Positions 3,224-42,377 of a stretch of DNA of 64,000 bases are shown here, piece by piece; the stretch's first letter is position 1; each line of letters starts with the position of its first letter. The DNA is taken from assembly GCF_009914755.1 (NCBI RefSeq), contig NC_060942.1; one strand, 5' to 3'. The DNA is from the human T2T-CHM13v2.0 reference genome, Homo sapiens. The notes under the pieces were generated by a model that worked only from the letters and a program-made list of their open reading frames with translations, ran no database searches and was not told the DNA's origin. The position numbers and the translations under genes were made by a program.

Positions 3224-3645
<422 letters not shown>

Positions 3646-19269: not shown

Positions 19270-19905
19270 AAATGAAAGCAGTTTCGCAGAGATATCTGCA
19301 CTCCCATGTTTATTGCAGCATAAGTCACAATAGCCAAGATACAGAAACAACCTATACAAATGTGGATGAATAAATGGATGAAGAAAATGTGGTATATATG
19401 TGTACTGGAAACACATATATACTTTTAAGAAGGAAAGAAATCCCGTCGTTTGTGACAATCTGGAGGATATTATGCTAAGTAGAGTAGGCCAGACACAGAA
19501 ATGTCCCATGATCTCCTTTACATGAGGAATCTAACAGAGTCAAGCTCCTAGGAGCCGGGGAAGTAGAACAGTGGTTACCGGGGGCTGGGGAGTGGGAAAA
19601 ATGGGAGATATTGGTCAAGAGGTGTGAAGTTTCACTTAGAAAATGAGTAAGTTCTGGAGATCTAATGTACAGTCTGCTGACTATGGTTGACAATACTGTA
19701 TTGTCTACTTGAAATTTGCAAAGAGAGTGGATCTTAAATGTTCTCATCACACCACACAAATGGTAGCTATGTGAGGTAAGATTGTATTGTTAATCAGCTT
19801 GATTACGGCAATCATTTCATGATGTATTTCATGATGTGTATCAAAACATCGCATTATACCTTAAACACATACAACTTTTCTTTGTCAATTACAGCTCAAG
19901 AAAGC
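19270..19905 (+). mobile_element. Old L1 3' UTR fragment (L1MA/L1MB type)
   Basis: GATATCTGCACTCCCATGTTTATTGCAGCA...GGATGAATAAATGGATGAAGAAAATGTGG...TGAAATTTGCAAAGAGAGTGGATCTTAAATGTTCTCA. Confidence 0.8.
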
Positions 19906-20197
19906 TGAGGGACAAAACCAGCTGGCAGAGCCAGGTTGGGAGCTGTAATCTCCAGTCTTTCTCCAACTGTGATTTCTCCCTCAAAGCTTTTCTTTGCATG
20001 TTCTCATCTCTGGCTCCCTAGGGTAGCTGCCTCCTACTCTCATGGTTCCTCTTTGTGACCCAGTTTACCTTTCCTACTGGCCGACACCACAGTATCTGGC
20101 CTGTCTTGGGTCAGGTGTCCATCCTTGGTCCAATCAGCTGTGAGTGGTGTGGGAGAGCTTATTAGAGGCAGAAGTCTCCTTAGAAGAGGATGTGAAT

Positions 20198-20260
20198 GCT
20201 CATTCTCTCTCCTGCTGCCATGTGAAGAAGGACATGTTTGTTTCCCCTTCCACCATGATT
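20198..20260 (+). mobile_element. THE1-type (MaLR) LTR fragment forming the 5' leader of the retrocopy
   Basis: CCTGCTGCCATGTGAAGAAGGACATGTTTGTTTCCCCTTCCACCATGATT matches the recalled THE1D-like LTR up to its internal donor (CATGATT|GTAAG). It lies inside the TSD. Confidence 0.8.
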
Positions 20261-20851
20261 GTTTCTGCTGCAGCCCAGCTCCTGGACTGGCCCCAGGTTC
20301 TGGCCCTAAGGGTTTCGATCCAAGCATCATTCACTGTCGCACATGTTTGGCAGCAAGACCCAGCCCACTGTCTTAGGTAAGCCCAAGGCTCCCCGTTTGG
20401 TCACTCTGTTCCCGCCCTCCTCTGAGGAGTTCCAAGCTAACAAGGCCACCCTAGTGTGTCTCATGAATGACTTCTACCTGGGCACCGTGACAGTGGCCTG
20501 GAAGGCAGACGGCATCATCATCACCCAGGACGTGGAGACCACTAAGCCTCCCAAACAGAGCAAGAAACAGGCCAGCAGCTACCTGAGCCTGATGCCTGAA
20601 CAGTGGAGATCCCGCAGCAGCTACAACTGCTGGGCCATGCATAAAAGGAGCACCCTGGAGAAGACAATGGCCCATACAGAATGTTCTTAGGTCCCTGGCC
20701 CTCACCCCACCCATGGAGGCCTGGAGCTGGAGGATCCCAGGGGAGGTGTCTCTCCTCCCATCCCAAGTCATCCAGCCCTTCTCCCTGTACCCAATAAACC
20801 CTCAATAAGTATCCTCATTGTCAAACAGAAAAACAAAAACAAAACAAAAAA
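20198..20851 (+). pseudogene. IGLJCOR18: Processed immunoglobulin lambda-like pseudogene (IGLL1/lambda5-type exon 2 plus constant exon, with an LTR-derived leader)
   Basis: From 20262 it reads [38 protein letters not shown], fused without an intron to [33 protein letters not shown]...TECS* (stop ends 20690). AATAAA is at 20793-20798 and an A-rich tail at 20828-20853. The target-site duplication is AAGA(G/A)GATGTGAAT at 20184-20197 and 20852-20865. The symbol is from recall of the known dispersed processed lambda gene on chr18. Confidence 0.93.
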
Positions 20852-21302
20852 AAGAAGATGTGAATATTAGTGAAGACCACTGGCCTTCAACACAGATACA
20901 CCTGAATGCATGATTTCATTAACTTGTTAATATGACTTTATTGGATTTTGTGTCATAGCCAGCAGAGGACTTGCCAAGAGTCATCTCATGCAGATGACAA
21001 AGCTAGCCAACATCTGAATGAGATCAATATCAAAAAGTGACAGGTCAGGCTTGGCAGCACGCACCTGCAGTCCCAGCTACTCAGGAAGCTAGATAGGTGG
21101 ATTGCTTGAGCCCAGGAGTTGGAGTCCAGCCTGGGCAACGTAGTGAGACCTGACTCTATTTTTTTATTTTTATTTTTAATTTTTGGGGGTAAATGTAGGT
21201 ATATATATTTAATGGAGTACATGAAATGTTTTGATACAGGCAGGCAAAGACTTCAACTCTTAAAAAAATGACAATCTAAATGTCAAAAAACAGAGTGGTT
21301 AA

Positions 21303-31659: not shown

Positions 31660-32235
<576 letters not shown>

Positions 32236-40420: not shown

Positions 40421-42377
<1,957 letters not shown>

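What the first reader, a model, noticed from the sequence alone, without database searches (positions are those of the whole stretch)
20184..20865. Retrocopy preserves a chimeric mRNA: THE1 LTR first exon spliced to lambda5-like exons
Seen: within one TSD pair lie 63 nt of THE1-like LTR ending CCATGATT (20198-20260), joined directly to GTTTCTGCTGCAG..., then a 116-nt exon-2-like block, the constant exon, AATAAA and an A-tail. Established: THE1/MaLR LTRs are promoters with an internal donor after CATGATT, are active in germline and early embryo, and drive CSF1R in Hodgkin lymphoma; IGLL1 exon 2 begins at the R|FLLQ junction. Inference: an IGLL-family gene was once transcribed from a THE1 LTR in germline or early embryonic cells, replacing its signal-peptide exon 1. 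That would explain how a pre-B-cell-restricted gene left a heritable retrocopy.
Basis: partly seen in the sequence, partly recalled or inferred. Interest (0 to 1): 0.8.

Follow-up and report, generated by a model that had tools for sequence, protein, structure and literature searches.

The report
LTR-led lambda5-like retrocopy on chr18
The known chromosome-18 immunoglobulin lambda processed pseudogene is a copy of a lambda5-type (IGLL) messenger whose first exon came from a retrotransposon LTR promoter, so it records an ancient LTR-driven transcript of a gene normally restricted to pre-B cells.

Summary
A 13-of-14 target-site duplication (20184-20197 / 20852-20865) encloses four parts:
- a 63-nt leader (20198-20260);
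- a 116-nt IGLL exon-2 block (20261-20376);
- the lambda constant exon with its 3'UTR;
- an A-rich tail.

The leader is a dispersed MaLR-type LTR piece. In 11 genomic copies a TATA-like box starts 25-35 nt before the point where the leader begins. The leader ends exactly where those copies carry a GTAAG-type splice donor.

Homology to three chr22 IGLL loci begins at 20261, directly after their intron's ...cag acceptor. Both sides of one junction therefore sit on splice sites. The template was an LTR-initiated, spliced IGLL transcript lacking the signal-peptide exon, copied by L1.

Caveats:
- The best-matching copies look MST-like rather than THE1-like, by my recall. No Dfam was available.
- No convincing source LTR was found within 60 kb upstream of the three loci.
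- Germline or embryonic expression is inferred, not shown.
- No outgroup genome was available.

The pseudogene itself has been known since 1982 (IGLJ-C/OR18). I found no paper linking IGLL genes to a MaLR LTR. This is a neat transcript fossil of modest interest.

The parts
20184..20197 (+). 5' target-site duplication, AAGAGGATGTGAAT
   Evidence: 13 of 14 identical to 20852-20865, and the only two matches in the window at one mismatch or fewer.
20198..20260 (+). 63-nt leader: MaLR-type LTR segment running from the predicted LTR start site to the LTR splice donor
   Evidence: dispersed repeat, 40 of 215 candidates scored, 89-100% identical; in 11 copies a TATA-like box starts 25-35 nt before the equivalent of 20198, and GTAAG-type donor remnants follow the equivalent of 20260.
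20261..20376 (+). IGLL (lambda5-type) exon 2: unique region plus J-like segment, 116 nt
   Evidence: 82-83% identical to exon 2 of three chr22 loci, starting right after their ...cag acceptor. Only 69% to the J-lambda-1 upstream region. Premature TAA at 20307-20309.
20377..20690 (+). Lambda-type constant exon coding part with its stop codon (TAG at 20688-20690)
   Evidence: The reading frame is kept to the natural stop. The J-C part matches PDB chain 2h32_B (Ig omega / lambda5) at 1.1e-48 and lambda light chains.
20691..20828 (+). 3'UTR with hexamers AATAAA (20793-20798) and AATAAG (20804-20809)
   Evidence: homology to the genomic 3'UTRs of four chr22 loci runs to about 20831.
20829..20851 (+). 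Degenerate poly(A) tail
   Evidence: an A-rich run begins where genomic homology stops and abuts the 3' TSD.
20852..20865 (+). 3' target-site duplication, AAGAAGATGTGAAT

Best explanation
This is an L1-made processed pseudogene, the annotated IGLJCOR18 / IMGT IGLJ-C/OR18. Its template was a chimeric messenger. Transcription began at the promoter of a MaLR-class LTR of the THE1/MST group that lay upstream of exon 2 of an ancestral IGLL (lambda5-type) gene. The LTR's own 5' splice site was joined to the normal acceptor of IGLL exon 2. Exon 2 was spliced to the constant exon, and the RNA was polyadenylated at the normal site.

The RNA lacked exon 1, which carries the signal peptide. The LTR's ATGs are either followed at once by a stop or are out of frame, so the RNA could not make lambda5.

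L1 reverse-transcribed it into chr18, which produced the tail and the TSD. Because the copy is inherited, this happened in germline or early-embryo cells.

Shown here: the anatomy, both splice-site coincidences, and the start-site position. Inferred: where the source LTR lay, the cell type, and L1 as the agent.
For: TSD and its rarity.

Leader is an LTR piece: 215 candidates, 40 scored, all 89-100% identical.

Leader ends at the donor: in the 11 copies fetched it ends exactly before GTAAG-type sequence. GT is intact in 6 of 11; the other 5 read AT, CT, AT, GC and GG. All 11 keep a recognisable copy of the adjoining ..AAGTTTCC.. motif, with 1-2 changes in four of them.

Leader starts at the predicted start site: in the 11 copies a TATA-like box (two weakened) starts 45-55 nt before CCATGTGAAG. 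The retrocopy's first base lies 20 nt before that motif, so it is 25-35 nt after the box.

No LTR U3 sequence upstream.

IGLL homology starts at 20261, right after ...cccagcag in 3 of 3 chr22 loci. Identities are 100/121, 98/119 and 97/119.

The exon 2 to constant-exon join is exact, and 3'UTR homology ends at the tail.

Exon 2 is IGLL-type rather than J-lambda-1-type: 82-83% against 69%.

LTR ATGs: 20220 is in frame but followed at once by a stop codon (1-aa ORF). 20234 and 20255 are out of frame and give 48-aa and 41-aa ORFs.

Published support, from passages read: MaLR LTRs carry a promoter, a start site and a splice donor of ...gtaag form but no acceptor (PMC5538554). Human oocytes hold LTR-initiated transcripts, including THE1 MaLR, and 639 genes have LTR-initiated isoforms spliced into genic exons (PMC6102241).

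Age fits: the retrocopy's terminal branch is 0.128 substitutions per site. The LTR copies are about 0.12-0.15 each from their common ancestor.
Against: No source LTR was identified. Within 60 kb upstream of exon 2 of each of the three chr22 loci, the only same-strand hit is 27 kb upstream of the IGLL3P-like locus. It matches the leader at just 50 of 66 alignment columns, 11 of them gaps, and is of the other subtype, with GTGACG after the donor. None of the 39 scored genome-wide hits other than the window's own copy is on chr22. The wider upstream scan could not be run.

No IGLL1, IGLL3P or IGLL5 entry occurs in the held supplements of the two oocyte LTR papers: 4 files of PMC6102241, and 10 files of PMC5538554 with one further file not searched.

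The junction has a 2-nt GT overlap, which would also fit a microhomology join.

The subfamily name rests on recall. No outgroup genome or RNA data were available.
Confidence: 0.85

Rival explanations
1. Two-template chimera. While copying an IGLL mRNA, L1 reverse transcriptase switched at the RNA's 5' end to an unrelated MaLR LTR transcript, so the two pieces were never one RNA.
For: A 2-nt GT overlap at the junction could serve as microhomology. Template-switch chimeric retrocopies are a known class (recalled, not checked here).
Against: The IGLL part would have to end exactly at the first base of exon 2, and the LTR part exactly at its splice donor. A double coincidence with splice sites is what splicing predicts, not random switching. 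An IGLL RNA beginning at exon 2's first base is not expected without splicing.
Confidence: 0.04
2. The 63 nt are a pre-existing LTR fragment of the chr18 target. A retrocopy starting at exon 2 happened to land beside it.
For: Published cases exist of pseudogenes integrating next to an LTR (PMC5538554, passage read).
Against: The TSD encloses the leader. There is no LTR homology upstream of 20198 or after 20865 (its two weak antisense hits lie at 21099-21183, more than 230 nt beyond the TSD). Immediate flanks are single-copy. A fragment bounded exactly by start site and donor is not how LTR debris normally looks.
Confidence: 0.03
3. The LTR piece was an internal or read-through exon of a transcript that began further upstream, and the retrocopy is 5'-truncated. 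The LTR supplied the donor but not the promoter.
For: 5' truncation of L1-made copies is common (recalled). The start site was not mapped experimentally.
Against: The 5' end falls 25-35 nt after the TATA-like box in the 11 copies. MaLR LTRs are reported to carry no splice acceptor (PMC5538554). Base 1 (G) mismatches the T found in the 4 of 11 copies that share the CTCATTC motif. That would fit a cap-derived extra G on a full-length copy; this last point is my speculation, based on recall.
Confidence: 0.07

Closest known systems
IGLJ-C/OR18 (RefSeq IGLJCOR18), the processed lambda gene of Hollis et al. 1982, Nature 296:321
   Same: It is the same locus. [quoted passage not shown]
   Different: The RefSeq span 20260-20691 omits the leader, the 3'UTR, the tail and the TSDs. 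The name says J-C, yet the 5' block is IGLL (lambda5-type) exon 2, not a bare J segment. I could not read Hollis 1982 because it is not held. Whether it noted the 5' repeat-derived piece is unknown to me.
LTR-initiated chimeric transcripts (LITs) from MaLR LTRs in oocytes and early embryos
   Same: An LTR supplies the promoter, start site and splice donor, and splices into a downstream genic acceptor (PMC5538554 and PMC6102241, passages).
   Different: Here the transcript is known only from its DNA fossil. The driving LTR was not found in the present human IGLL loci, and no IGLL entry appears in those papers' held supplements.
THE1B LTR-driven CSF1R in Hodgkin lymphoma
   Same: [quoted passage not shown]
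   Different: That case is a somatic, pathological activation seen as RNA. This one is an ancient heritable event seen as a retrocopy, and the LTR here appears to be of another subtype.
Processed pseudogenes used as fossils of past transcript isoforms (concept recalled; PMC7692494 seen only as a search listing and abstract start)
   Same: A retrocopy preserves exon structure and the ends of an ancestral transcript.
   Different: The preserved feature here is an LTR-derived first exon on a tissue-restricted immune gene.

Membership tests
L1-mediated processed pseudogene | Introns removed precisely | tested here: met
   The exon 2 to constant-exon join is exact. The roughly 1.4-kb intron of the chr22 loci is absent.
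L1-mediated processed pseudogene | Poly(A) tail at the mRNA's 3' end | tested here: met
   Genomic 3'UTR homology stops at about 20831. An A-rich run follows to 20851.
L1-mediated processed pseudogene | Target-site duplication flanking the whole insert | tested here: met
   13 of 14 identical. Only two matches in 64 kb, against 0.07 expected.
L1-mediated processed pseudogene | Endonuclease target resembling TTTT/AA (recalled consensus) | tested here: inconclusive
   If the TSD is read as 16 nt (20182-20197 against 20850-20865, 14 of 16), the bottom-strand nick is TTCT/AA. With the 14-nt TSD it is TCTT/CT. This is my own reading.
IGLL (lambda5-type surrogate light chain gene) rather than a classical J-C lambda transcript | Exon 2 with the unique region upstream of the J-like part | tested here: met
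   20261-20376 aligns full length at 82-83% to three chr22 loci whose exon 2 translates [14 protein letters not shown].... It is only 69% identical to the region upstream of J-lambda-1.
IGLL (lambda5-type surrogate light chain gene) rather than a classical J-C lambda transcript | Constant exon groups with IGLL genes | tested here: inconclusive
   The constant exon plus 3'UTR is equidistant from IGLL-like loci (K2P 0.19-0.21) and IGLC loci (0.18-0.24). In the tree the three IGLL-like loci form a clade (100% support) that excludes the retrocopy.
MaLR LTR (THE1/MST group) | Dispersed LTR with a TATA-like box, and a GTAAG-type donor near the 3' end | tested here: met
   The published donor form ...gtaag is from a PMC5538554 passage.
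MaLR LTR (THE1/MST group) | Subfamily assignment (THE1 or MST) by Dfam/RepeatMasker | not testable with these tools
   No repeat library is on hand. The best copies carry GTAAGTTTCCTGAGG after the donor. Copies carrying GTGAGG/GTGACG match at only about 75-76%. Calling the first MST-like and the second THE1-like rests on my recall.
LTR-initiated chimeric transcript | 5' end at the LTR start site and use of the LTR donor into a genic acceptor | tested here: met
   The start site is inferred from the TATA distance, not mapped.
LTR-initiated chimeric transcript | Driving LTR present on the same strand upstream of the parent gene | tested here: not met
   Nothing convincing within 60 kb upstream of each of the three loci. 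Further sequence could not be obtained. Absence after tens of millions of years in a rearranging region is weak evidence.
LTR-initiated chimeric transcript | RNA evidence for the LTR-to-exon-2 junction | not testable with these tools
   No RNA data here. There are 0 occurrences of IGLL1, IGLL3P or IGLL5 in the held supplements of two oocyte LTR studies.

The most novel reading that the evidence does not exclude
An ancestral primate IGLL gene had a non-coding isoform driven by a then-young MaLR LTR in germline or early-embryo cells. That promoter has since been lost from, or is unrecognisable in, the human chr22 loci, and this retrocopy is its only surviving record. If so, retrocopies whose 5' ends are LTR start-site-to-donor leaders could be mined genome-wide as fossils of extinct germline LTR promoters. 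They would also help explain how tissue-restricted genes came to leave heritable retrocopies.
Probability: 0.6. Interest if true: 0.5.

Novelty: new member of a known kind. Interest (0 to 1): 0.4.

Why it matters
It gives a concrete mechanism for an old puzzle about one of the earliest processed pseudogenes to be described: how a gene confined to pre-B cells was reverse-copied in cells that contribute to the germline. The answer offered is that an LTR promoter drove it there.

It also corrects the common description of the locus. The locus is an IGLL exon-2 plus constant-exon copy with an LTR leader, not simply J-C.

It suggests a simple genome-wide screen: look for orphan LTR start-site-to-donor leaders at retrocopy 5' ends, as a record of past LTR-driven germline transcription.

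It changes nothing about lambda5 function. The copy was non-coding on arrival, since it had no signal peptide and the LTR ATGs are unproductive.

Tried and rejected
- Source LTR search. I fetched 60 kb upstream of exon 2 of each of the three chr22 IGLL-like loci and searched with the 63 nt. Three MaLR copies lie upstream of the IGLL3P-like locus. One is on the same strand, 27 kb away, and is of the other subtype. Two are antisense. None was found for the two minus-strand loci. Wider fetches were not possible.
- IGLL5 / J-lambda-1 as the parent. Rejected: 69% identity against 82-83%.
- Paralogous empty sites. The flanks next to the insert are single-copy, and only 19800-19917 is an old dispersed repeat, so no internal empty-site test was possible.
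- Literature. Hollis 1982 and Hollis 1989 are not held. For the 1986 and 1990 J Exp Med papers, the only passages returned for my search terms were in their reference lists. Searches for IGLL1 with LTR / chimeric transcript / THE1, and for the pseudogene's names, found nothing linking IGLL genes to a MaLR LTR. One paper correlates IGLL1 with a nearby HERV-K provirus in breast cancer, which is unrelated to this mechanism (passages read). A gorilla IMGT paper does not mention the chr18 orphon.
- No consensus of the LTR copies was built. Only pairwise distances were used.

Full report
**What is there**

The window is human chr18 (hub annotation), and the human assembly could be searched as G000. 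Between 20184 and 20865 lies a classic retrocopy.

- A 14-nt direct repeat, AAGAGGATGTGAAT / AAGAAGATGTGAAT, sits at 20184-20197 and 20852-20865.
- At one mismatch or fewer this word occurs nowhere else in the 64-kb window. Expected by chance is 0.07, and 1 of 100 shuffles reached two matches.
- The second copy directly abuts an A-rich run at about 20829-20851.

**The gene-derived part**

Searching the genome with 20261-20810 gave 18 matches: the window's own copy on chr18 and 17 on chr22.

Three chr22 loci hold both an exon-2-like block and a constant exon:
- C22:24022181-24022301 with 24020367-24020806 (minus strand). I call this IGLL1-like from its position, strand and translation; that name is by recall.
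- C22:25779300-25779418 with 25780805-25781244 (plus strand; IGLL3P-like, by recall).
- A third copy at C22:24087451-24087569 with 24085653-24086090 (minus strand).

Key points on the alignment:
- It starts exactly at 20261, with identities of 100/121, 98/119 and 97/119.
- In 3 of 3 loci the genomic sequence just upstream is intron ending ...cccagcag.
- Exon 2 is 116 nt (20261-20376). It joins the constant exon precisely, with the roughly 1.4-kb intron gone.
- Exon 2 of the IGLL1-like locus translates [38 protein letters not shown]. The retrocopy reads [37 protein letters not shown]... and stays in frame to ...TECS and the natural stop, with one premature TAA at 20307-20309.
- The region upstream of J-lambda-1 (the IGLL5-type arrangement, by recall) is only 79/115 (69%) identical to the retrocopy's exon 2. 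The parent was therefore of the IGLL1/IGLL3P lineage.
- The J-C part matches PDB chain 2h32_B ('Immunoglobulin omega chain') at 1.1e-48, alongside many lambda light chains.
- Homology to the genomic 3'UTRs runs to about 20831, and then the tail begins.
- AATAAA is at 20793-20798. A second hexamer at 20804-20809 reads AATAAG here and AATAAA in 3 of the 4 genomic loci aligned.

**The 63-nt leader**

The stretch 20198-20260 is a dispersed repeat. There were 215 first-look candidates. The 40 that were scored are all 89-100% identical, and none of the 39 besides the window's own copy is on chr22.

I examined the 11 best other copies (L002-L012).

- Downstream of the leader: all 11 continue with a GTAAG-type sequence (GTAAGTTTCCTGAGG...) and then typical LTR 3' sequence. 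GT is intact in 6 of 11; the other 5 read AT, CT, AT, GC and GG.
- Upstream of the leader: they carry a TATA-like box, TTTTATAAGGGG or a near variant (two are weakened: TCTATACGGGG and TTTTGTGAGGGG). It starts 45-55 nt before the motif CCATGTGAAG. The retrocopy's first base lies 20 nt before that motif, so it is 25-35 nt downstream of the box start. That is where a TATA-directed start site is expected.
- None of the LTR's upstream (U3) sequence is present in the window. The 498 nt before 20198 give no hit to the LTR copies. The 495 nt after 20865 give only two weak antisense hits, at 21099-21183, far from the insert.
- The immediate flanks are single-copy in the genome. Only 19800-19917 belongs to an old dispersed repeat.

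The leader is thus an isolated LTR segment bounded by the predicted start site and the splice donor, and it lies inside the TSD.

**Why splicing is the best reading**

One junction (20260 | 20261) coincides on its left with the LTR's 5' splice site and on its right with the first base of IGLL exon 2. Published work states that MaLR LTRs carry a promoter, a start site and a conserved donor (...gtaag) but no acceptor. It also states that such LTRs supply first exons to host genes in oocytes and zygotes (PMC5538554, passages read).

Human oocytes hold LTR-initiated transcripts, including from THE1 MaLRs, and 639 human genes have LTR-initiated isoforms spliced into genic exons (PMC6102241, passages read).

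The only blemish is that GT at 20261-20262 could belong to either partner. This leaves formal room for a microhomology join during template switching. That rival needs two independent coincidences with splice sites, so I rate it low.

**Coding consequence**

The leader holds three ATGs:
- 20220 is in the IGLL frame but is followed at once by a stop codon.
- 20234 is out of frame and gives a 48-aa ORF.
- 20255 is out of frame and gives a 41-aa ORF.

The chimeric RNA lacked the signal-peptide exon and could not encode lambda5. The retrocopy was non-coding on arrival.

**Age and parentage**

- The constant exon plus 3'UTR (455 nt) differs from the IGLL-like loci by K2P 0.188-0.205 and from the IGLC loci and orphons by 0.18-0.24. 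The three IGLL-like loci differ from each other by only 0.043-0.062.
- In a maximum-likelihood tree those three form a clade (100% ultrafast bootstrap) that excludes the retrocopy. The retrocopy's terminal branch is 0.128 substitutions per site.
- The retrocopy therefore predates the duplications that produced the present IGLL-like copies. Its parent was their ancestor or a lost paralogue.
- With recalled neutral rates of roughly 1-2 x 10^-9 per site per year, this means several tens of millions of years. CpG-rich exons inflate the figure.
- LTR copies of this subtype differ pairwise by K2P 0.24-0.30 outside the 63 nt, or about 0.12-0.15 each (55 and 45 pairs, with L009 dropped from the downstream set because of an internal deletion). 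The LTR subfamily was therefore young when the transcript was made, when promoters and donors are most often intact.

**What I could not show**

*The source LTR.* I scanned 60 kb upstream of exon 2 of each of the three loci.
- The two minus-strand loci gave nothing on the gene's strand.
- The IGLL3P-like locus has one same-strand copy 27 kb upstream. It matches the leader at 50 of 66 alignment columns, 11 of them gaps. It carries GTGACG after the donor, so it is another subtype.
- Two antisense copies match about as well (81% and 75%), so the same-strand copy has no special claim.
- Further chr22 sequence could not be fetched.

*The subfamily name.* No repeat library was available.

*The cell type and the outgroup state of the site* remain untested.

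*Present-day RNA.* IGLL1, IGLL3P and IGLL5 do not occur in the held supplements of PMC6102241 (4 files) or PMC5538554 (10 files searched, one not searchable).

**What is known**

[quoted passage not shown] 1982 (PMC7555362, passages read). That 1982 paper and Hollis 1989 are not held, so I cannot say what they noted about the 5' segment.

The RefSeq span (20260-20691) leaves out the leader, the 3'UTR and the tail.

Full-text searches found no paper tying an IGLL gene to a MaLR LTR:
- IGLL1 + LTR + chimeric transcript: 0 papers.
- IGLL1 + THE1: 2 papers, unrelated by title and abstract start.
- IGLL1 + LTR: 15 papers, 13 listed, none on this by title. I read passages of the HERV-K paper only.
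- The pseudogene's names: 12 papers, 9 listed.

Subscription journals are largely outside this library.

**Verdict**

This is a new instance of two known phenomena combined: an LTR-initiated chimeric transcript, preserved as a processed pseudogene. It sits in a historically well-known locus. Interest is modest, at 0.4.

Noticed in passing
window 20281-20502: RefSeq lists a 'silencer' functional element lying wholly inside the retrocopy (exon-2 and constant-exon part). This comes from the hub's annotation table. I looked for no evidence on what it silences.
   Followed up: no
G000 C22:24085653-24087569 (loci L021, L030): A third IGLL-like exon-2 plus constant-exon copy lies about 65 kb upstream of the IGLL1-like locus on the same strand. 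Its K2P to the other two is about 0.06. I could not name it.
   Followed up: partly
L046 3130-3188 and 5113-5180; L048 4463-4511 (chr22, upstream of the IGLL3P-like locus): Three MaLR LTR copies lie within 27 kb upstream of the IGLL3P-like exon 2: one same-strand and two antisense, of at least two subtypes.
   Followed up: partly
window 19800-19917: An old dispersed repeat: 97 candidates, 40 scored, the 39 besides the window's own copy 74-85% identical. It ends about 270 nt before the retrocopy. Family not determined.
   Followed up: no
window about 21040-21190: Alu-like sequence by eye (recall), beginning about 180 nt after the 3' TSD. It explains the two weak antisense hits.
   Followed up: no
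window 3310-3645, 31687-32235, 40501-41640: The hub table lists three more processed pseudogenes in the same 64 kb (RPL31P59, RPL21P127, BOD1P1). Not examined.
   Followed up: no
window 20198: The first base of the insert (G) mismatches the T found at that position in the 4 of 11 LTR copies that share the following CTCATTC motif. It may be a cap-derived extra G on a full-length cDNA. This is speculative.
   Followed up: partly
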